A stretch of 36,868 nt of DNA from a virus (Duplodnaviria; Heunggongvirae; Uroviricota; Caudoviricetes), in the IMG/VR virus record IMGVR_UViG_3300011831_000028. One strand, written 5' to 3'. The translations under genes and the position numbers were made by a program. Below the pieces are notes generated by a model that was given only the letters and a program-made list of their open reading frames with translations, ran no database searches and was not told the DNA's origin. Positions 2,335 to 36,303 of this stretch are shown one piece after another (positions within the stretch are counted from its first letter, which is position 1; each line of letters opens with the position of its first letter).

Positions 2335-2446
2335 GTCTCAAGTTTGCGCGTGGTGAAAATTATTTTCGTTACGCGCAGAACTTTTTTATCAGGGGGCAGT
2401 CATAACTAGTGCCACTGCTTTTCTTTGATGTCCCCAATTTGTGGAG

Positions 2447-2490
2447 CCCATCAACCCCGCCGTTTTGGTTCAAGGTTGATGGGTTTTTTG
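2447..2490 (+). terminator. rho-independent terminator-like hairpin downstream of ybjL; its 3' arm lies inside the attR core
   Basis: Perfect 10-bp stem cccatcaacc / ggttgatggg (2447-2456 / 2474-2483), 17-nt loop, then T6 (2484-2489). Confidence 0.45.
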
Positions 2491-2500
2491 TTGCCTGAAA
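2479..2500. repeat. attR core, 22-bp direct repeat atgggttttttgttgcctgaaa
   Basis: Identical 22-mer at 2479-2500 and 36378-36399, bracketing ogr at one end and int at the other. Confidence 0.75.
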
Positions 2501-9858: not shown

Positions 9859-10425
9859 TCAGGGGGATTCATTGCTCTTATTTGCCGGAAATTTTCTATA
9901 AATTGTGGAAACACCCACATCAAAAATCAGTGCAATACGCTGTCTTGATTCTCCGGCCTCGAGTAAACGCCCAATCTGTGCCCACTGTTCGGTGGTCAAC
10001 TTAGGACGGCGTCCACCTACTCTGCCTTTGGCACGAGCTGCAGCCAGCCCTGCCCTGGTACGTTCAACTATCAGTTCGCGTTCCATTTCAGCCAGGGCAC
10101 CCATGACATGAAAAAAGAAACGGCCCATTGGGGTGCTGGTATCAATACTGTCAGTCAGGCTTCGGAAATTCACGCCTTGCTGACGCAACTCTTCTATCAG
10201 CGTAACAAGATGCCGCATACTGCGCCCCAACCTGTCCAGCTTCCAGACAACCAGCGTGTCTCCTGCCGATAGTGTCCTGAGCAGTTTTTTCAACCCTGGT
10301 CTGTCGGACTTAGTGCCACTGATTTTATCCTCAAAAATTCGCTCACATCCCGCGCAGTTCAGTGCATTACGTTGCAAATCGGTGTTCTGGTCATTTGTTG
10401 ACACGCGTACATAGCCAATAAGCAT
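9859..10425 (-). CDS. serine DNA invertase (Pin/Gin/Hin/Cin family)
   Basis: MLIGYVRVSTNDQNTDLQRNAL.., catalytic Ser region and C-terminal HTH; start placed at Met16 of the track ORF by alignment to recalled Pin. Confidence 0.9.
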   Translation of the reverse strand: MLIGYVRVSTNDQNTDLQRNALNCAGCERIFEDKISGTKSDRPGLKKLLRTLSAGDTLVVWKLDRLGRSMRHLVTLIEELRQQGVNFRSLTDSIDTSTPMGRFFFHVMGALAEMERELIVERTRAGLAAARAKGRVGGRRPKLTTEQWAQIGRLLEAGESRQRIALIFDVGVSTIYRKFPANKSNESP

Positions 10426-10480
10426 GAGCATCCCCCTGAATAAAAACCGGGGATGATGCCAGTTAACCATTATCTCTGCA

Positions 10481-10506
10481 TTTTCATAAACGTTGGTTTG
10501 GGAGAA
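10481..10506. repeat. gix-like recombination site (left boundary of invertible segment)
   Basis: Reverse complement ttctcccaaaccaacgtttatgaaaa shares the first 14 nt (ttctcccaaaccaa) with the site at 12167-12192; half-sites fit TTnTCnnAAACC. Confidence 0.65.
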
Positions 10507-11079
10507 GGCTCTGCATTACCTGTTGGTGTCCCTGTTCCGTGGCCTTCAGCCACTCCGCCAACAGGCTGGCTGAAATGCAATGGTGCGGCTTTTTCTGCTG
10601 AAGAATACCCGGAACTGGCAAAGGCTTACCCGACAAATAAATTGCCAGATTTACGTGGTGAGTTTATTCGTGGCTGGGATGGCGGGCGAGGGATTGATGG
10701 GGGGCGCATACTTCTCAGTTGTCAGAGTTTTGCTTTCCAGGACCATGCGCACGCTCTGCCAACCGGAGTGGGTAATCCGTCATACCAGATGGAAAGCGAT
10801 ATCTATACGGTTTTCAACGATGAACCAGAAATACCCAGTGCGGTCCTGAGTCCATCGTCGTCAGGAACATCATGGGACGCAACCAGTAGGGCAGACAAGG
10901 TAATCCTTTATCGCAAGGACCTTTCACCAACAGGTAATAACAACGAAATAGCGCCCGGATTACCACCATTCAGGACTTACAGGGCATCGACCTCAGACGG
11001 TGTTACTCATCCGTCCGTGTACGCATCTGAAACCCGTCCGCGCAACATTGCATTTAACTACATCGTGAGGGCTGCATAA
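10495..11079 (+). CDS. silent alternative tail-fibre C-terminal cassette (Sv'-like), promoterless in this orientation
   Basis: Frame reads NVGLGEGSALPVGVPVPWPSATPPTGWLKCNGAAFSAEEYPELAKAYP.. (tail-collar-type fibre tip) directly after the crossover site; opposite strand to H. Confidence 0.65.
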   Translation, partial: GLGEGSALPVGVPVPWPSATPPTGWLKCNGAAFSAEEYPELAKAYPTNKLPDLRGEFIRGWDGGRGIDGGRILLSCQSFAFQDHAHALPTGVGNPSYQMESDIYTVFNDEPEIPSAVLSPSSSGTSWDATSRADKVILYRKDLSPTGNNNEIAPGLPPFRTYRASTSDGVTHPSVYASETRPRNIAFNYIVRAA

Positions 11080-11684
11080 TGGCGAAAGCAAAATTAAACA
11101 GTGCGTTTATTGCCACCGTGGCAGGAGAAATCACTGTGTACAACTACCGGGGCGACACCCGCGAATACATATCCTCATCGCTTGAGTATCTGCCTGTGGG
11201 GGTGGGTATTCCTGCCAATTCCTGTACCGATGCGCCCGGCACACATAAGGCTGGTTATGCAATCTGCCGTTCTGCAGATTTTAACTCATGGGAATATGTG
11301 CCAGACCATCGCGGTGAAATTGTCTATGGCATCGAAACGGGGGAATCAAAAGAAATTACTGTGCCGGGGGATTACCCTGAAAATACGACCACTTTTGCCC
11401 CATTAACGCCATACGATAAATGGGATGGTGAGAAATGGGTAACAGATACCGAGGCACAGCATAGCGCCGCAGTAGATGCAGCAGAAGTACAGCGCCAGTC
11501 TCTGATTGATGCTGCTATGGCTTCCATCAGTCTGATTCAGCTGAAATTGCAGGCCGGACGTAAACTGACGCAGGCAGAAACAACCCGCCTTAACGCTGTG
11601 CTGGATTACATTGACGCGGTGACGGCAATAGATACCAGCACCGCGCCTGATATTATTTGGCCTGTATTCCCTGAGACTGATTAA
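11079..11684 (+). CDS. tail fibre assembly chaperone (Tfa/U'-like) for the silent cassette
   Basis: 201-aa ORF with conserved Tfa C-terminus ..RLNAVLDYIDAVTAIDTSTAPDIIWPVFPETD; start overlaps the Sv' stop. Confidence 0.8.
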   Translation: MAKAKLNSAFIATVAGEITVYNYRGDTREYISSSLEYLPVGVGIPANSCTDAPGTHKAGYAICRSADFNSWEYVPDHRGEIVYGIETGESKEITVPGDYPENTTTFAPLTPYDKWDGEKWVTDTEAQHSAAVDAAEVQRQSLIDAAMASISLIQLKLQAGRKLTQAETTRLNAVLDYIDAVTAIDTSTAPDIIWPVFPETD

Positions 11685-24565: not shown

Positions 24566-25975
24566 TTACTCATCTACTCTGATTTTTTGTTTTTTATTAT
24601 TTTGAGTTAAGACATTTATGGTAATAGATGTATACGGATGAAAGTCAGGCACTATACTTTTAACCTCTCCATTTTCAAGAAAATGATGTGCTATTGAAGG
24701 AAATAAATCAGGATCTACAGGATATTTAGCATTAGGATTATGATACATATTTAAACCTTCTGCCCATGTTTCTGTAATATCGCCTTCTTTCACTTCAAAA
24801 CTAAATGCTGCTGGATATAATGCCTCTGGGTCATGATCATGGCAGTAACCACTCCTAAATAATCTAAGGTCACTTCTTCCAAAACCAGCCAGTTTTCCCA
24901 TCCGATTAAACTTCGATATAGTACCACTATTAGAACTAAGGACGGCCGAAATATTTTCAGACTCATCCAAGAAGAAAAAGCCTGAAGGAATTTCCTTTTT
25001 CTCAAATTGATGCGATATAATTTTCTTAGTTGCTAAACTGTAACATCCATCTTCAGATTTAACATGCTCATAGCGAATACCATAAAGATACTGCCAAAGT
25101 GCACTATGGGACCAAATCATAGAGTTTGGTTCATGAAAATCAGCAATTGCGAAAATTAAAGGATTCCCCTTAACATGTTCTAGATCCCAGTATCGAGTTT
25201 TCTTTTTCAGTTTAGAATAGAGAGAACTTCCAAATTTAATCGGCATATAATTCTCTATTTTCTCTAGCAATTCTTCCTTACTTTTAGGTTCAGATAGCAT
25301 TTCAGATGATTGATTAATATCATTCCCTGTTGGATTAACCGTTACAGCTTCAATGCAAATAGTATTACCATACTTACGTGCCACATAATCAGGGGCATTA
25401 AACTGCCTATCTAGCCAAAAGTGTTCCTCTCGTAAATATGCGAAAAGATATAACTCCCATAGCCGGGCATCAAAACCTGTTGTCTGAAACTGCTCTATAA
25501 AATTCCCGTCGACATCCTCAAAATGATTCATCATTTCCTTGATTATCCCTGTTGCAGGCGACCAGTTCGCGTATTTACCAAATAATGAAAAATGATGATG
25601 AAGTTTATCTGGTGTAACTATAGGTGTGAATAAATCCATTGCTTTATAAGTTTCATCACCTTGTGGAAATACTTTTACGTTTAATTTAGTATGCTTCCGC
25701 ATTAATTTCTTTAGTTTTGCTCGTGCAGAATTCATTTCTGAAACACTAGTAAATAGGTCAATACATCTATATCTCCCACTTAAGTCTCTTGCTAAAACAA
25801 TACCGCTATAATCTTCATCGATTTGATCCAATAATAGTGCCCCTAGCAGGAACTCTCTCGGACTACAGTACCACTCAAACTCATAGCCTAAAAGTTCAGT
25901 ATTTGGCATTCTGGTCCAATCAACAAAAGCATTAAACCTCTCTTTACTCATTTTTTTTATATCAAGAAAAGACAT
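24566..25975 (-). CDS. hypothetical 469-aa protein, A+T-rich accessory gene between portal gene and cos
   Basis: Uninterrupted ORF with GAGG Shine-Dalgarno 8 nt upstream of ATG; no family recognised by eye; convergent with Q. Confidence 0.6.
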   Translation of the reverse strand: MSFLDIKKMSKERFNAFVDWTRMPNTELLGYEFEWYCSPREFLLGALLLDQIDEDYSGIVLARDLSGRYRCIDLFTSVSEMNSARAKLKKLMRKHTKLNVKVFPQGDETYKAMDLFTPIVTPDKLHHHFSLFGKYANWSPATGIIKEMMNHFEDVDGNFIEQFQTTGFDARLWELYLFAYLREEHFWLDRQFNAPDYVARKYGNTICIEAVTVNPTGNDINQSSEMLSEPKSKEELLEKIENYMPIKFGSSLYSKLKKKTRYWDLEHVKGNPLIFAIADFHEPNSMIWSHSALWQYLYGIRYEHVKSEDGCYSLATKKIISHQFEKKEIPSGFFFLDESENISAVLSSNSGTISKFNRMGKLAGFGRSDLRLFRSGYCHDHDPEALYPAAFSFEVKEGDITETWAEGLNMYHNPNAKYPVDPDLFPSIAHHFLENGEVKSIVPDFHPYTSITINVLTQNNKKQKIRVDE

Positions 25976-31730: not shown

Positions 31731-31952
31731 CTAATTAAGGTTTAGATTGCATTCTGAAAGCGCATCAACGGTCATGGCTGCTATGTTGATCATCACTTTT
31801 TCGCGTTTTTTATCTTTCCGCAGACGGTGACGGATAAGACGTCCATCAGCCAACATGTCATTGATAGTATCGATGGATAGCCCTGTCAGCTCGCTATAAC
31901 GTTCAATAGTCACATGAGGCGTGGTAAGAGTGATTGAAATGTTAGGTTTCAT
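31731..31952 (-). CDS. Apl/Cox-like excisionase and switch regulator
   Basis: 73-aa HTH-like protein, first gene of the rightward early operon, divergent from cI. Confidence 0.65.
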
Positions 31953-32077
31953 GATGCAACATTCCTCGTTTAATGTTGATTAATCAGGACGAATACGGAT
32001 CGTTTGTATTTTGTGAACATCATAAACATACGATCGCATAATGAAATCGTCAAGACAAAAGTTCACTTGGAGTGACC
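31953..32077. promoter_or_regulatory. cI/apl divergent promoter-operator region
   Basis: 125-bp intergenic with palindrome tgattaatca (31975-31984), repeated atacg(g)atcg (31993-32002 and 32029-32037) and inverted gtgaac/gttcac (32013-32018 and 32061-32066). Confidence 0.5.
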
Positions 32078-32647
32078 ATGAATTTGGAGAAAGGCGGACG
32101 AGGCGCTATAGAGCGCATGGTAGAAGCATATGGCTTCAAGACTCGACAGGCGTTGTGCGATCACTTAGGAATCTCTAAAAGTACTCTCGCCACACGCTAT
32201 ATGCGTGACTCATTCCCTGCTGAATGGGTAATCCAGTGCGCACTTGAAACGGGCGCCTCGCTTAACTGGCTCACGACCGGACATGGTTCAAAGCAAACTT
32301 CAGGTAATACAAATACTATGGAAGTCGTTAAATATGTATTATCTGATGGAACCTTGCAGGAAGATGGTTTTTATATTTTCGATAAAGAATTTCTACCATC
32401 TACGCTCAAAAATCCGTTTGTAATCACCGATAACAATTCCGTTTTTATTTGCGATAAAGAGTTTAACGATATTCGTGACGGCAAATGGGTAATAAGTATT
32501 GATGCCGAAGTAACAATCCGCGATATCACTCGTTTACCTGGTGGAAGAATCTTAGTTGAAGGTGGAAATAGGGCTTTCGAATGTAAAAAAGAAGAAATCG
32601 AAATTATTGGAAAAATTATAAGCATAACAGTTAAGTACTTTGAGTAA
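32078..32647 (+). CDS. cI: immunity repressor CI (186-type, N-terminal HTH plus C-terminal oligomerisation domain)
   Basis: MNLEKGGRGAIERMVEAYGFKTRQALCDHLGISKSTLATRYMRD..; GGAG 6 nt upstream of ATG at 32078 (track ORF begins at GTG 32072). Confidence 0.8.
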   Translation: MNLEKGGRGAIERMVEAYGFKTRQALCDHLGISKSTLATRYMRDSFPAEWVIQCALETGASLNWLTTGHGSKQTSGNTNTMEVVKYVLSDGTLQEDGFYIFDKEFLPSTLKNPFVITDNNSVFICDKEFNDIRDGKWVISIDAEVTIRDITRLPGGRILVEGGNRAFECKKEEIEIIGKIISITVKYFE

Positions 32648-32697
32648 TATAGGAATGTTTTTATGCTTGGTAAAGCATTTGTTGTGGTGTAAAAAAT

Positions 32698-33621
32698 ATG
32701 TCAACTCAAAAATTAAAATTTAGCCATATCAAAAACGATCTGAAAGCAATAGTTATGCAGAATCGTGGAGGGCAAAAAGTTATTGAGCGTATACTCCTAG
32801 CCTATGGCTTCAAGTCACGACAGGCATTATGTAATCATCTAGGTATTTCCCAAAGTACTATGGCCAACAGATATGCACGTAATACCTTTCCTGCAGATTG
32901 GGTTGTTATATGTTCCATAGAAACAGGAGCATCAATTGAATGGTTAGTTCTTGGTTCAGATACTGCTCCTTCATCAGAGCAATATTCTGAAAAACATGCC
33001 GTTAATGGCCTTTGCAATGAAGTATACATTCCCACTATAAAGTTCGATAATGAAAAACTCATGAATTTTAACCGAGGGGGTAAGGCAACAATAGAACGAA
33101 TTGTCGAGGCTTACGGTTACAAAACGCGCCAAGCATTAGCTGATCACCTAGGTATTTCAAAAAGCACATTAGCCACACGATACATGCGTGACATTTTTCC
33201 TGCAGACTGGGCTTTGCAGTGTGCAATAGAAACGGGCCATTCTATTGAATGGATTTCATTTGGTACAGGAGAAATGAAAAACGCAAAAAATAAAGATACT
33301 TTAACATTAGTGAAAAAAGTATTAATCAATGGCAAGTTAATAAATGATGGCTCATATTTATTTGACCCATGCTTTCTACCTTCCAATTTAAAAAATGCAT
33401 TCGTAGTATCTACCGAAGACTCTGAATTAATATGTGAAATGGGTTTTAAAGATGTACATGATGGTAAGTGGCTAGTAAATATTGATGGAGAGAATTCATT
33501 TAGAATGATAACTCGACTACCTAAAGGACGAGTTTATATTTCATCCCAAAATCACTCTTTTGAATGTTCGCTTACAGATATTGAGTTTATTGCAAAAGTT
33601 ATTATAAGTTGTTTACATTAA
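32698..33621 (+). CDS. CI-paralogue with two tandem CI-type HTH domains and a CI-like C-terminal domain
   Basis: Residues ~23-88 and ~117-182 each align to the CI N-terminal domain; second copy has recognition helix SKSTLATRYMRD identical to CI; C-terminal ~100 aa aligns to the CI C-terminal domain. Confidence 0.7.
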   Translation: MSTQKLKFSHIKNDLKAIVMQNRGGQKVIERILLAYGFKSRQALCNHLGISQSTMANRYARNTFPADWVVICSIETGASIEWLVLGSDTAPSSEQYSEKHAVNGLCNEVYIPTIKFDNEKLMNFNRGGKATIERIVEAYGYKTRQALADHLGISKSTLATRYMRDIFPADWALQCAIETGHSIEWISFGTGEMKNAKNKDTLTLVKKVLINGKLINDGSYLFDPCFLPSNLKNAFVVSTEDSELICEMGFKDVHDGKWLVNIDGENSFRMITRLPKGRVYISSQNHSFECSLTDIEFIAKVIISCLH

Positions 33622-33646
33622 GTAAATTTTTCATGGAGACTTCATA

Positions 33647-35164
33647 GTGAAATGTGGTGATTGTAATTGGAACTGGGATGAAGAAACTACCTTTATATTA
33701 GACGACGAAGAGGAAATTCTTTCCAAAGACAAACTTAATCGGAGACACTATGCAGAATATCTATATTTTTATCTTAAGGAAAAGGGGCAAAAGAACAACA
33801 CGGTAATCAACCTTAATGCAGAATGGGGAGCTGGTAAAAGTTTTTTCATAAAGAGATTTTATAACTCAATAAAAGATGCACACCCATGCGTTTACATTGA
33901 TGCCTGGAAGCAAGACTTTTCTGATGATGCATTTTTAACCCTTTTTTCTTCTTTGTCACAACAATTGCAAACATATGCAGGAAAACTTGATGCTCGATTG
34001 ATACAAAGCGGCCATGCTATCGGACGCTTTACAAAAGGTGTTCTACCTGAAATCATATCTGGCCTAATCAAGACTTATGCAGGAGTAGATAACGTAGGTG
34101 ATATAGCCAAAGAAGCCTCATTAATAATGCTGAAGGAACACCAGGAAAAACTGAAGAGCATTAAGGTATTAAAAAAAGAACTAACGTTATGGTCTAGGTT
34201 GGCATATGAAAATAGTTTTTCATGTCCTATATTTATCTTTATAGATGAATTAGACAGATGCAGGCCAGATTATGCAATTTCTCTTTTAGAGATTGTTAAA
34301 CATATATTCGATATTAAAAATTTTGTCTTTATTATTGCTACTGACACAGATCAATTACAACATTCAATCAAGAATGTTTACGGTAATGATTTTTCCGCAA
34401 ATGACTATTTAGGCCGTTTTTTTCATAGAAGATTTACTTTAAAACAACCTGAACTTAAAGATTTAATTAATGGTGTTGTTGGTGATTATATTGGTACCGA
34501 TTTTGAAAATATCACATCAAAAACATACCCACTAACAGCAACATTAGAAGACTTTTCAATAAATATTTCCAACGTATTTGAAGCATTTGGGTTAAATCTA
34601 AGAGACTCAATCCGAAATACTGAAAGGTTAATAGACATTCTTAAATCTGATTTAGTCAAAAAGAAAGTAGATTATATTTTTATAATTTCGCTAATGATTA
34701 TATATGATAAGGATCGTCAAATTATAGATGGACTAATTGGTCGAAGAAATGCAGCACAACGTTTCACTGATTCGATAAAGCAAAGCTCCAATTTAAAAGG
34801 TGTTTCTCAAGCCATCCTTGAATTAAATCTTGATACAAATCAGCAAAGAATAGGTGTCAATTATATCTATAGAACGGCGAGCAGTAGATTATTCATCTCA
34901 CAGATCGAGCCCAAAATAAATTTAACATTAATAAATTACTTAGATGTTGCATTGTATTTTATTAATAATATAAACATGCTTAAATCAAGTATAAAAAACA
35001 ATGGGCAAAATTCACTAATGATTATATCTCAACAAGGCCCTATTGATGGTGATACAGCTATAAAGTATTTGCAAGGAGCCCTTATAGAGAATGGTCTGAA
35101 TACATCTTTTTATGCCTTACATAATTACATTGAATTAATTGAACTGGCCACATCATTTGATTAA
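33647..35164 (+). CDS. KAP-family P-loop NTPase
   Basis: Walker A NLNAEWGAGKSFF and Walker B IFIFIDELDRCRPDYAISLLE, both hallmark KAP signatures; GTG start with GGAG upstream. Confidence 0.7.
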   Translation: MKCGDCNWNWDEETTFILDDEEEILSKDKLNRRHYAEYLYFYLKEKGQKNNTVINLNAEWGAGKSFFIKRFYNSIKDAHPCVYIDAWKQDFSDDAFLTLFSSLSQQLQTYAGKLDARLIQSGHAIGRFTKGVLPEIISGLIKTYAGVDNVGDIAKEASLIMLKEHQEKLKSIKVLKKELTLWSRLAYENSFSCPIFIFIDELDRCRPDYAISLLEIVKHIFDIKNFVFIIATDTDQLQHSIKNVYGNDFSANDYLGRFFHRRFTLKQPELKDLINGVVGDYIGTDFENITSKTYPLTATLEDFSINISNVFEAFGLNLRDSIRNTERLIDILKSDLVKKKVDYIFIISLMIIYDKDRQIIDGLIGRRNAAQRFTDSIKQSSNLKGVSQAILELNLDTNQQRIGVNYIYRTASSRLFISQIEPKINLTLINYLDVALYFINNINMLKSSIKNNGQNSLMIISQQGPIDGDTAIKYLQGALIENGLNTSFYALHNYIELIELATSFD

Positions 35165-35225
35165 AAGCATTGTTTGAATAAACTAAACCATACATTGACC
35201 ACTGGTCAAACATACAGTTAAATTT

Positions 35226-35250
35226 AGCCCTCTGATATGAGGGCTTTATT
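35226..35250 (+). terminator. hairpin plus T-rich tract immediately upstream of the int start codon
   Basis: agccctc tgatat gagggct ttatt; the 3' arm contains the GAGGG Shine-Dalgarno of int. Confidence 0.45.
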
Positions 35251-36303
35251 ATGGCAGTACGAAAACTCACCACAGGAAAATGGCTTTGCGAATGTTACCC
35301 CGCCGGACGTAGTGGGCGTCGTGTGCGTAAACAATTCGCCACCAAAGGCGAAGCACTGGCTTTTGAGCGTCACACGATGGAAGAAACCGAAGCAAAGCCC
35401 TGGCTGGGTGAATCAGTGGATCGTCGAACACTGAAAGACGTGGTTGAGCTATGGTTCAAACTACATGGTAAATCTCTGACTGCTGGGCAGCATGTCTATG
35501 ACAAATTGCTGCTGATGGTTGACGCTCTGGGCAATCCCCTTGCAACTGATCTAACCTCTAAAATGTTTGCCCACTATCGAGATAAACGCCTGACAGGTGA
35601 GATCTACTTCAGTGAGAAATGGAAGAAAGGAGCAAGCCCGGTCACCATTAACCTGGAGCAAAGCTATCTAAGTAGTGTTTTTAGCGAACTATCCCGCCTG
35701 GGCGAATGGTCGTATCCGAACCCACTGGAGAACATGCGAAAATTCACCATCGCAGAAAAAGAGATGGCATGGCTTACCCATGAGCAGATTGTTGAATTAC
35801 TAGCTGATTGCAAACGTCAGGACCCAATTCTGGCACTGGTAGTTAAGATATGCTTAAGCACAGGCGCACGCTGGCGAGAAGCCGTAAATCTTACCCGCTC
35901 ACAGGTGACCAAATACCGAATTACCTTTGTAAGAACGAAGGGGAAGAAAAACAGAAGCATCCCTATCAGTAAAGAGCTTTACGAAGAGATCATGGCGCTT
36001 GATGGGTTCAATTTCTTCACAGACTGCTATTTTCAATTTTTATCCGTGATGGAAAAAACGTCTATCGTGCTCCCTCGCGGTCAACTCACACACGTTCTGC
36101 GCCATACGTTTGCGGCGCACTTCATGATGTCGGGTGGAAACATTCTGGCTTTACAAAAAATTCTCGGGCACCACGATATAAAAATGACTATGCGTTACGC
36201 ACATCTGGCACCGGATCATCTGGAAACGGCGCTCCGTTTCAATCCTCTGGCAACGCTGCCAAGTGGCGACAAAGTGGCGGCAGCGGTTGGCATTACCCCG
36301 TAA
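35251..36303 (+). CDS. int: tyrosine integrase (P2/186 Int family)
   Basis: 350 aa with C-terminal ..HVLRHTFAAHFM..GHHDIKMTMRYAHL (R..H..R..Y catalytic pattern). Confidence 0.9.
   Translation: MAVRKLTTGKWLCECYPAGRSGRRVRKQFATKGEALAFERHTMEETEAKPWLGESVDRRTLKDVVELWFKLHGKSLTAGQHVYDKLLLMVDALGNPLATDLTSKMFAHYRDKRLTGEIYFSEKWKKGASPVTINLEQSYLSSVFSELSRLGEWSYPNPLENMRKFTIAEKEMAWLTHEQIVELLADCKRQDPILALVVKICLSTGARWREAVNLTRSQVTKYRITFVRTKGKKNRSIPISKELYEEIMALDGFNFFTDCYFQFLSVMEKTSIVLPRGQLTHVLRHTFAAHFMMSGGNILALQKILGHHDIKMTMRYAHLAPDHLETALRFNPLATLPSGDKVAAAVGITP

What the first reader, a model, noticed from the sequence alone, without database searches (positions are those of the whole stretch)
32698..35164. Two-gene accessory module between cI and int: dual-HTH CI paralogue plus KAP-family NTPase
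In 186/P2 the repressor gene is followed directly by int; here about 2.5 kb of visibly A+T-rich DNA is inserted, co-oriented with cI with 50-bp and 25-bp gaps, so it is probably expressed in the lysogen. Gene 1 has two copies of the CI DNA-binding domain, each roughly two-thirds identical to CI by my manual alignment. The second copy has a recognition helix identical to the prophage's own CI (SKSTLATRYMRD), while the first is diverged (SQSTMANRYARN). It also has a CI-like C-terminal domain, so it could bind CI operators and/or co-oligomerise with CI. The nucleotide sequences are diverged, so this is not a recent duplication. Gene 2 has unambiguous KAP NTPase Walker A/B signatures and, unlike many KAP proteins, no obvious transmembrane insert. 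A repressor-like sensor paired with an NTPase effector at a lysogeny-expressed locus is a plausible superinfection-exclusion or anti-phage system, or a modulator of the immunity switch. I do not recognise it as a described system.
Basis: partly seen in the sequence, partly recalled or inferred. Interest (0 to 1): 0.85.

Follow-up and report, generated by a model that had tools for sequence, protein, structure and literature searches.

The report
Borrowed phage repressor plus KAP NTPase cargo
A 186-like E. coli prophage carries, in the variable slot between its repressor and integrase genes, an intact repressor gene borrowed from a rival phage type and a separate KAP-family NTPase already listed as an untested anti-phage candidate. 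They are two independent cargo genes, not a new two-gene system.

Summary
Window 32698-33621 encodes a 307-aa protein with two 186-CI DNA-binding domains and a CI C-terminal domain. Window 33647-35164 encodes a 505-aa soluble KAP P-loop NTPase. Both lie in 2.5 kb of low-GC DNA between cI and int.

The sensor-plus-effector reading is not supported.
- Dual-HTH CIs are the only immunity repressor of many 186-like phages and prophages, including Klebsiella phage 4LV2017.
- Gene 1 is a mosaic. Its DNA-binding half is 86-91% identical to those repressors.
- Its C-terminal domain groups with single-HTH CIs that sit just upstream of KAP orthologues.
- KAP orthologues follow a sole cI, follow an unrelated gene, survive in a decayed prophage, or occur without any CI (77 of 80 distant loci).
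- KAP matches PADLOC candidate PDC-S20 (E 8e-78).
- The cI-int gap is a cargo hotspot with at least 16 cargo types, including PD-T4-2-like genes.
- The tandem-cI layout occurs in one near-clonal lineage (17 of 5426 complete E. coli genomes, including E2348/69).
- The insertion truncated a ydcA-like gene.

Most likely gene 1 gives immunity to dual-HTH-type competitors that use the same attachment site, and KAP is a stand-alone defence. Neither has been tested. Interest is moderate.

The parts
31731..31952 (-). apl-like excisionase/switch gene (73 aa), divergent from the resident cI
   Evidence: ORF. It holds the same position as the 73-aa gene next to cI in all sibling prophages.
31953..32077 (.). 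Resident lysis-lysogeny switch region (125 bp), with a pR-like promoter on the minus strand and candidate CI operators
   Evidence: Promoter-like site TTGACG-17-TATGTT at 32053-32025. GTGAAC/GTTCAC half-site-like motifs and short inverted repeats are present. Operator assignment is inferred, not shown.
32078..32647 (+). Resident immunity repressor cI (189 aa from the ATG; the ORF opens at GTG 32072)
   Evidence: PF07022 and PF16452. The RefSeq annotation in E2348/69 starts at the ATG. It is 93% identical at the DNA level to the cI of sibling prophage L003.
32663..32692 (+). Nine-codon remnant of a ydcA-like ORF. It marks the left junction of the insertion (32688/32689). Its stop codon lies 5 nt before the gene 1 ATG.
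   Evidence: Alignment with L003, which carries an intact 63-aa ydcA-like gene here. The BLAST boundary is 32688.
32698..33621 (+). Gene 1: captured heterologous dual-HTH CI repressor (307 aa). HTH1 is residues 23-88, a disordered linker 89-124, HTH2 125-190 and the C-terminal domain 200-307.
   Evidence: Pfam and AlphaFold2 model. Match to the solved 186 CI structure 2fjr, E 3e-23. Residues 1-190 are 86-91% identical to sole dual-HTH repressors. The C-terminal domain is 58-73% identical to that of KAP-linked 186-aa CIs.
33647..35164 (+). Gene 2: soluble KAP-family P-loop NTPase (505 aa) of PADLOC PDC-S20 type, with its own GGAGA ribosome-binding site
   Evidence: PF07693 E 1e-45. PDC-S20 model PDLC04959 E 8e-78. 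phrog_8614 E 5e-64. The ribosome-binding site is conserved with L005. AlphaFold2 pLDDT 84. Best solved-structure matches are RdrA rings.
35189..35250 (+). Conserved int-upstream segment that forms the right border of the cargo slot. It includes the hairpin 35226-35245 followed by a T-run that abuts the int ATG.
   Evidence: Homology with all sibling prophages resumes at 35185-35190. Alignment. Terminator-like hit.
35251..36303 (+). Tyrosine integrase
   Evidence: Int_N and Phage_integrase domains. It is 94-96% identical at the DNA level to the int of dual-HTH-type prophages integrated at the same rcdA/ybjJ site.

Best explanation
The cI-int interval of 186-like prophages is a cargo hotspot with conserved borders. 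In this lineage, a 2.5-kb block (32689-35188) replaced most of a small ydcA-like gene. The block holds two independent genes that arrived together by linkage.

(1) Gene 1 is a complete immunity-repressor gene of the dual-HTH 186-CI class. Its operator/promoter region was left behind, apart from about 10 nt before the ATG. It is probably transcribed from the resident pL with cI, and possibly translated by coupling to the ydcA' mini-ORF. Its DNA-binding half is nearly identical to the sole repressors of dual-HTH-type prophages, which use the same attachment site and a 94-96% identical integrase. I therefore infer that it represses the early promoter of such superinfecting competitors, giving the lysogen a second immunity specificity.

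(2) Gene 2 is a stand-alone soluble KAP P-loop NTPase of PDC-S20 type, expressed in the lysogen. By analogy with validated KAP defences, I infer that it uses NTP binding or hydrolysis, together with its variable C-terminal domain, to block infecting phages.

Shown: the anatomy, the mosaic origin, the independence of the two genes, the hotspot and the lineage restriction.
Inferred: co-transcription, DNA-binding specificity and anti-phage activity.
For: Hotspot:
- Relative to sibling L003, homology stops at 32688 and resumes at 35189. The first nine codons of the ydcA-like gene are retained.
- In 74 IMG/VR loci the cI-int gap ranges from 0.2 to 2.6 kb, with at least 16 cargo clusters.
- Sibling cargoes include PD-T4-2/NsnA-like genes and PDC-M11A, DUF4747, and GmrSD_N plus HEPN.
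- The same kind of hotspot is described in K139-like phages (PMC9122126).

Gene 1 is a bona fide repressor type:
- It is the sole cI next to apl in Klebsiella phage 4LV2017 and in E. coli and Salmonella prophages.
- 29 of 80 IMG/VR CI loci carry a single dual-HTH cI.
- Both recognition helices match those repressors, except for a terminal N in place of D in HTH1.
- All 12 copies examined are intact.
- The fold is as expected.

Mosaic origin and linkage with KAP.

KAP is independent of gene 1:
- It sits directly after a sole 186-aa cI in L004, L005, L095 and L097.
- It sits after an unrelated coiled-coil gene in Yersinia.
- It is intact in a decayed prophage whose cI and int are fragmented.
- Only 3 of 80 distant KAP loci have any CI-like ORF within 6 kb.

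KAP as a defence gene:
- PDC-S20 match, E 8e-78.
- KAP NTPases with unknown C-terminal regions are validated defences (PMC13552941).
- The fold is nearest the RADAR RdrA rings.
- Within the lineage there are 13 synonymous and 11 nonsynonymous changes, and 7 of the 11 nonsynonymous changes fall in the last ~100 codons.

Operon: no better-than-chance promoter or terminator lies between cI and the end of KAP. KAP has a conserved ribosome-binding site.
Against: - There are no expression or phenotype data.
- Gene 1 shows 3 synonymous and 6 nonsynonymous polymorphisms within the lineage. That cannot be told apart from neutral drift.
- Gene 1 departs, conservatively, at 7 of 76 near-invariant family positions.
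- Its Shine-Dalgarno sequence is poor.
- The operators of dual-HTH phages are not defined. I could neither show nor exclude cross-recognition of the resident operators.
- PDC-S20 itself is untested.
- The validated KAP defences are distant, membrane-anchored proteins from Firmicutes.
- No phage with this exact mosaic CI as its primary repressor was found, so the donor is inferred.
Confidence: 0.7

Rival explanations
1. Gene 1 is a functionally neutral hitch-hiker. It is a repressor gene dragged in with KAP by recombination. It is still intact because the event is recent, but it has no role in the lysogen. Only KAP is selected.
For: - The layout occurs in a single lineage that is at least 99.4% identical.
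- Gene 1 has 3 synonymous and 6 nonsynonymous changes, against 13 and 11 for KAP.
- Its own promoter/operator region is missing.
- It has a weak ribosome-binding site.
- In a decayed remnant, KAP survives while cI decays.
Against: - All 12 copies examined are intact, and all 17 complete genomes are annotated with two CI genes. They come from different hosts and continents.
- All of its departures from the family consensus are conservative.
- Its stop-to-start spacing to the ydcA' mini-ORF allows translational coupling.
- A repressor matching competitors for the same attachment site has an obvious selective value.
Confidence: 0.3
2. One reading: gene 1 and KAP form one sensor-effector system. 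The CI-like protein senses infection or the state of the immunity switch and controls the NTPase.
For: - The genes are adjacent and co-oriented with a 25-bp gap.
- The C-terminal domain of gene 1 and KAP share evolutionary history.
- KAP orthologues at 63-79% identity always lie directly after a CI with a related C-terminal domain.
Against: - In those prophages the upstream CI is the phage's only repressor, so adjacency is explained by position in the slot.
- In Yersinia, KAP is separated from cI by another gene, and the CI C-terminal domain is only 39% identical.
- KAP stays intact where cI has decayed.
- 77 of 80 distant KAP loci have no CI-like ORF nearby.
- PDC-S20 is a single-gene candidate.
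- Validated KAP defences act alone.
Confidence: 0.07
3. Gene 1 modulates the resident switch. It would bind the prophage's own operators through HTH2, or co-oligomerise with the resident CI through the C-terminal domain. Either would change induction frequency, for example by hyper-repression or by resistance to the Tum antirepressor.
For: - The HTH2 recognition helix is identical to the resident CI's, and the domains are 72% identical.
- GTGAA/TTCAC motifs recur in the switch regions of all immunity types.
- The C-terminal domains are 48-49% identical.
Against: - That helix is shared across heteroimmune types whose switch regions differ in sequence and length (88, 125 and 146 bp).
- No match to the candidate dual-type operator GTGAMS-N4-SKTCAC was found anywhere in the window.
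- The C-terminal domain of gene 1 is closer to another clade (58-73%) than to the resident CI.
Confidence: 0.12

Closest known systems
Coliphage 186 CI immunity repressor (PDB 2FJR full length, 2FKD C-terminal domain)
   Same: Same domain families (PF07022 N-terminal HTH and PF16452 C-terminal oligomerisation domain). Sequence match E 3e-23 over HTH2 plus the C-terminal domain.
   Different: Gene 1 has a second N-terminal HTH domain joined by a disordered linker of about 37 residues. It is not next to apl/pR and lacks its own operator region. Its recognition helices differ from those of 186.
Dual-HTH CI of Klebsiella phage 4LV2017 (Elveevirus) and E. coli/Salmonella prophages (P0002-P0032)
   Same: Same three-domain architecture. 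The dual-HTH half is 86-91% identical, with the same recognition helices.
   Different: Those proteins are the sole repressor at the switch. The C-terminal domain of gene 1 is only 34-41% identical to theirs. Gene 1 sits as second gene behind another cI.
PADLOC phage defence candidate PDC-S20 (guilt-by-embedding set; bioRxiv 10.1101/2024.01.29.577857)
   Same: Strong HMM match, E 8e-78, covering profile positions 11-382 of 464. Single-gene KAP NTPase.
   Different: PDC-S20 was defined from genes embedded in BREX, DISARM or type I RM loci and is untested. Here the gene is prophage cargo.
Validated KAP P-loop NTPase defences (EF_KAP and relatives, PMC13552941), Tmn, PifA and QatA
   Same: KAP NTPase domain followed by a C-terminal region of unknown function. 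The prophage or mobile-element context fits a defence role.
   Different: EF_KAP and Tmn have transmembrane helices, and this protein has none. PifA matches only over the N-terminal 250 residues (E 1e-16). QatA scores 43 bits against a cut-off of 600, and no QatBCD genes are present.
Prophage defence hotspots: the cI-int hotspot of K139-like Vibrio phages and the P2 hotspots (Rousset 2022, PMC9122126; Vassallo 2022, PMC9519451)
   Same: Variable cargo between conserved flanks at the cI-int junction of a P2 relative. Sibling cargoes match validated or candidate defence systems. A KAP relative sits in a Vibrio cI-int slot (L048).
   Different: In the papers I read, this slot is not described for enterobacterial 186-like prophages. 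A whole heterologous repressor gene as hotspot cargo was not reported there.
RdrA ATPase of the RADAR system (PDB 8HR8, 8FNT)
   Same: Best solved-structure matches to the KAP model (Foldseek E 7.5e-6). RdrA is a ring-forming defence ATPase.
   Different: Low TM-score (0.35) and 12-15% identity. No RdrB deaminase partner is present. This is fold-level resemblance only.

Membership tests
186-type CI repressor (PF07022 + PF16452) | N-terminal CI-type HTH domain above the Pfam gathering score | tested here: met
   PF07022 scores 186 bits against a cut-off of 22, in two stretches.
186-type CI repressor (PF07022 + PF16452) | C-terminal CI oligomerisation domain | tested here: met
   PF16452 scores 89.8 bits against a cut-off of 27. 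The model shows a beta-rich domain with pLDDT above 90. Matches to 2fjr and 2fkd.
186-type CI repressor (PF07022 + PF16452) | Encoded divergently from apl, at the pR/pL switch with its operators | tested here: not met
   Gene 1 lies downstream of the resident cI. Homology to dual-HTH phages starts about 10 nt before its ATG. The feature is met by its homologues.
186-type CI repressor (PF07022 + PF16452) | Sequence-specific operator binding and immunity | not testable with these tools
   Needs EMSA/ChIP and superinfection assays.
KAP family P-loop NTPase (PF07693) | Pfam match above the gathering score, with Walker A and Walker B motifs | tested here: met
   156.7 bits against a cut-off of 20. 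G61, G63, K64 and D200-E201-L202-D203 are invariant across 24 homologues.
KAP family P-loop NTPase (PF07693) | Transmembrane insert in the NTPase domain (frequent in the family, not obligatory) | tested here: not met
   The highest 19-residue hydropathy mean is 1.43.
PADLOC PDC-S20 | Match to the PDC-S20 HMMs as a single-gene system | tested here: met
   PDLC04959 E 8e-78. Three further PDC-S20 models match at E 1e-26 to 1e-46. The library gives no curated cut-off.
PADLOC PDC-S20 | Demonstrated anti-phage activity | not testable with these tools
   The source describes the PDC systems as 145 untested candidates.
Qat system (QatA) | QatA equivalog score, with QatBCD neighbours | tested here: not met
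   NCBIfam NF041923 scores 43 bits against a cut-off of 600. The neighbours are cI' and int.
PifA (F-plasmid T7 exclusion) | Full-length similarity to PifA | tested here: not met
   Only residues 26-273 match profile positions 15-261 of 720, E 1e-16.
Prophage defence hotspot (cI-int type) | Conserved flanks with diverse, defence-enriched cargo among related elements | tested here: met
   Borders at 32688 and 35189. At least 16 cargo clusters in 74 loci. PD-T4-2/NsnA-like genes, PDC-M11A and KAP are among the cargoes.
   The pair occurs only in one lineage that is at least 99.4% identical. KAP occurs without gene 1. Dual-HTH CIs occur without KAP.

The most novel reading that the evidence does not exclude
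The captured dual-HTH repressor is itself defence cargo. The prophage would have pirated the immunity repressor of a competing phage type that uses the same attachment site, expressing it from its own lysogenic operon. That would place a second immunity specificity next to a KAP NTPase defence. Separately, dual-HTH CIs would be a widespread, unstudied variant of the 186 switch in which each monomer carries two different DNA-reading heads.
Probability: 0.35. Interest if true: 0.6.

Novelty: new variant of a known kind. Interest (0 to 1): 0.4.

Why it matters
If gene 1 is active, it shows that a prophage hotspot can carry a competitor's repressor as an exclusion device. That would add immunity stacking to the catalogue of hotspot cargo. 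The dual-HTH CI class is common in Enterobacteriaceae, and I found no paper that discusses it in my searches of the held library. It gives the well-characterised 186 CI wheel model a natural variant with two reading heads per subunit, which can be tested directly with existing assays. The KAP gene is a convenient E. coli-native, soluble representative of the untested PDC-S20 candidates. It is present in the standard EPEC strain E2348/69. The practical gain is modest: both proteins fall into known kinds.

Tried and rejected
(1) Operator analysis. I compared the apl-cI spacers of the resident type (125 bp), the dual-HTH type (88 bp), the KAP-linked type (146 bp) and a Yersinia type (133 bp). GTGAA/TTCAC-like half-sites recur, and the Yersinia type has three clear 20-bp operators. 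For the resident and dual-HTH types the arrangement is ambiguous. A candidate dual-type operator, GTGAMS-N4-SKTCAC, has no match in the window at one mismatch or fewer, against 0.7 expected by chance. This is inconclusive, so I make no claim about cross-binding.

(2) Test for relaxed constraint on gene 1. It departs at 7 of 76 near-invariant columns (fifth highest of 36 sequences), and all changes are conservative. Polymorphism is 3 synonymous and 6 nonsynonymous. There are too few events to decide.

(3) I asked whether the 327-aa gene between cI and KAP in Yersinia is a diverged gene 1. It is not: BLASTP E 0.15, and only sub-threshold matches to coiled-coil families.

(4) Repeat and Rfam scans of the module. 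These gave only AT-rich, chance-level repeats and no RNA family in the module.

(5) Promoter and terminator scans. The number of promoter-like hits equals the shuffled expectation (15 against 14.7), so no internal promoter can be claimed.

(6) Literature. I found no paper on PDC-S20 by name, none on dual-HTH 186-type CIs, and none on the E2348/69 P2-like prophage in the held library.

(7) Hetero-oligomer modelling of CI with gene 1 is not possible with the single-chain predictor available.
Full report
**Observation**

- resident cI at 32072/32078-32647
- gene 1 at 32698-33621 (307 aa)
- gene 2 at 33647-35164 (505 aa)
- int at 35251-36303

All are on the + strand, with gaps of 50 and 25 bp. GC is 0.355 for gene 1 and 0.319 for gene 2, against 0.511 for the window.

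Pfam finds two PF07022 CI-type HTH domains and one PF16452 CI C-terminal domain in gene 1. It finds PF07693 KAP_NTPase (E 1e-45) in gene 2.

The AlphaFold2 model of gene 1 has two five-helix domains, a disordered linker of about 37 residues, and a confident beta-rich C-terminal domain. HTH2 plus the C-terminal domain match the solved 186 CI structure 2fjr at E 3e-23.

Identity to the resident CI N-terminal domain is 57-62% for HTH1 and 67-72% for HTH2. Nucleotide identity is 59-67%.

KAP has invariant Walker A and Walker B residues and no predicted transmembrane segment.

**Where the DNA comes from**

The window is a 186-like prophage lying between rybB/ybjL and rcdA/ybjJ of E. coli. The identical cI - gene 1 - KAP - int block is present in 17 of 5426 complete E. 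coli genomes, at 99.4% identity or more. These include EPEC E2348/69.

Every contig that carries the exact gene 1 protein has the same layout at the same site.

About a thousand other E. coli genomes match only the cI and/or int parts of the query. Sibling L003 carries only a 63-aa ydcA-like gene between them.

Relative to L003, homology stops at 32688 and resumes at 35189. The window keeps the first nine codons of the ydcA-like gene (32663-32692), fused to the last ~10 nt before the ATG of a dual-HTH cI. So a 2.5-kb block was inserted into a cI-ydcA-int ancestor.

**What gene 1 is**

Klebsiella phage 4LV2017 (Elveevirus) has a 313-aa dual-HTH CI as its only repressor. That gene is divergent from apl/cII and is followed by cargo and then int. 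The protein is 62% identical to gene 1 overall, and both recognition helices match.

The same holds for E. coli and Salmonella prophages L008-L014. About 20 deposited Klebsiella phage records also carry full-length matches to gene 1, annotated as CI repressors where annotation exists.

Among 80 IMG/VR loci with CI relatives:
- 29 have a single dual-HTH cI
- 48 have a single single-HTH cI
- only the two copies of this lineage have two intact cI genes in tandem (a third locus, L140, carries a dual-HTH cI split into two ORFs)

Dual-HTH CIs are therefore an ordinary, widespread primary repressor class. I found no paper that discusses them.

Gene 1 is a mosaic:
- Residues 1-190 are 86-91% identical to those primary repressors.
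- Its C-terminal domain is only 34-41% identical to theirs.
- Its C-terminal domain is 58-73% identical to that of 186-aa single-HTH CIs, which lie directly upstream of KAP orthologues.
- At the DNA level, dual-type homology covers 32690-33210 and KAP-linked-type homology runs continuously from about 33062-33103 through KAP into int.

It is not a specific tie to the resident CI.

**What gene 2 is, and whether it needs gene 1**

KAP matches PADLOC PDC-S20 at E 8e-78. PDC systems are 145 untested candidates found embedded in BREX, DISARM and type I RM loci.

Its matches to PifA and QatA are partial and below membership level.

KAP relatives occur in several settings without gene 1:
- Orthologues at 63-79% identity sit 25-28 bp after a sole 186-aa cI and before int in Klebsiella/Enterobacter-type prophages.
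- In Yersinia, an unrelated coiled-coil gene separates cI and KAP.
- In Enterobacter chinensis, a decayed remnant has fragmented cI and int but an intact KAP.
- Of 80 more distant KAP loci across Proteobacteria, only 3 have any CI-like ORF within 6 kb. One of those is a Vibrio K139-like cI-int slot.

Distant homologues share only the first ~360 residues. The C-terminal ~150-200 residues are variable. Within this lineage, 7 of the 11 nonsynonymous changes fall in the last ~100 codons.

The AlphaFold2 model has pLDDT 84. It most resembles the ring-forming RADAR ATPase RdrA, but only at fold level, with TM-score 0.35. No solved relative is found by sequence.

KAP NTPases fused to unknown C-terminal regions were recently shown to be single-gene defences. 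Those proteins need the Walker B motif and the C-terminal region, and they do not act by abortive infection (PMC13552941).

**The slot**

In 74 IMG/VR loci the cI-int gap ranges from 0.2 to 2.6 kb, with at least 16 distinct cargoes. Sibling cargoes include:
- PD-T4-2/NsnA-like pairs
- PDC-M11A
- DUF4747
- GmrSD_N plus HEPN

A cI-int antiviral hotspot has been described for K139-like P2 relatives in Vibrionaceae (PMC9122126). The enterobacterial 186-like slot appears to be the same phenomenon.

**Expression (inferred)**

No promoter or terminator better than chance lies between cI and the end of KAP. KAP has a conserved GGAGA ribosome-binding site. Gene 1 has a poor Shine-Dalgarno sequence, but it starts 5 nt after the stop of the ydcA' mini-ORF, which itself has an AGGA site. 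Translational coupling is therefore possible.

**Interpretation**

The two genes are independent cargo. They are linked by descent from a cI-KAP-int donor and are not a sensor-effector pair.

The best functional guess for gene 1 is a second immunity specificity. Its DNA-binding half is nearly identical to the repressors of dual-HTH-type prophages. Those prophages use the same rcdA/ybjJ attachment site and have a 94-96% identical int, so they are direct competitors.

The main rival is that gene 1 is a neutral passenger. Supporting that, its polymorphism is 3 synonymous and 6 nonsynonymous, and it occurs in a single lineage. Against it, all copies are intact and its departures from the family consensus are conservative.

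An effect on the resident switch cannot be excluded, because the operator analysis was inconclusive.

**Verdict**

The two-gene-system idea and the claim of novelty are mostly not supported.

I rate novelty as a new variant of a known kind. KAP is a new member of a catalogued candidate family, sitting in a known type of hotspot. The unusual element is a complete heterologous repressor gene carried as cargo. Interest is 0.4.

Noticed in passing
window 24566-25975 (-): A 469-aa protein matching the validated defence system PD-T7-1 (PADLOC PDLC04073, E 1e-196; no Pfam hit). It sits in the classical P2 hotspot between the replication gene A and the portal gene. The prophage therefore carries defence cargo in two hotspots.
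   Followed up: partly
window 9859-11684: A Hin/Cin-type DNA invertase (9859-10470, minus strand; Resolvase plus HTH_7) lies next to tail-collar and tail-fibre-assembly ORFs (10453-11684, plus strand). This suggests an invertible host-range segment.
   Followed up: partly
window 2414-2492 (+): RybB sRNA (Rfam 103.5 bits), just outside the left end of the prophage. The element lies between rybB/ybjL and rcdA/ybjJ.
   Followed up: no
window 35195-35250: A conserved int-upstream segment with the palindrome TTGACCACTGGTCAA and a GC-rich hairpin (35226-35245) followed by a T-run that runs into the int ATG. The hairpin is kept in sibling prophages, with a swapped outer base pair (A-T against T-A). 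It may act as an attenuator or translational control of int.
   Followed up: partly
L015 5160-9263 (Enterobacter chinensis): A decayed 186-like remnant. apl, cI and int are in fragments, and a 247-aa ORF is fused to the last residues of int. The KAP gene (483 aa, 38% identical) is intact.
   Followed up: partly
alignment A3 (proteins P0022, P0043, P0054, P0055): Dual-HTH CIs are modular. Most share a nearly invariant HTH1 (SQSTMANRYARD), but some carry other HTH1 types. In the Edwardsiella proteins, HTH1 closely resembles the N-terminal domain of this window's resident CI.
   Followed up: no
L001/L008/L005/L100 apl-proximal spacer, e.g. L001 3938-3953: A conserved GGCTTGTGGTGAGCC hairpin-like element just upstream of apl is present in the dual-HTH, KAP-linked and Yersinia switch types. 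It is absent from the window's resident type.
   Followed up: no
L112 (NZ_JBRERE010000002.1): One of the 17 E. coli records places the whole module on a 149.8-kb replicon labelled plasmid pE100181_149. This could be a misassigned chromosomal contig or a real relocation.
   Followed up: no
window 34872-35030 (KAP C-terminus): Seven of the 11 nonsynonymous polymorphisms among 12 near-identical copies cluster in the last ~100 codons of KAP. That is the region which also varies among distant homologues. It may be a target-recognition surface under diversifying selection.
   Followed up: partly
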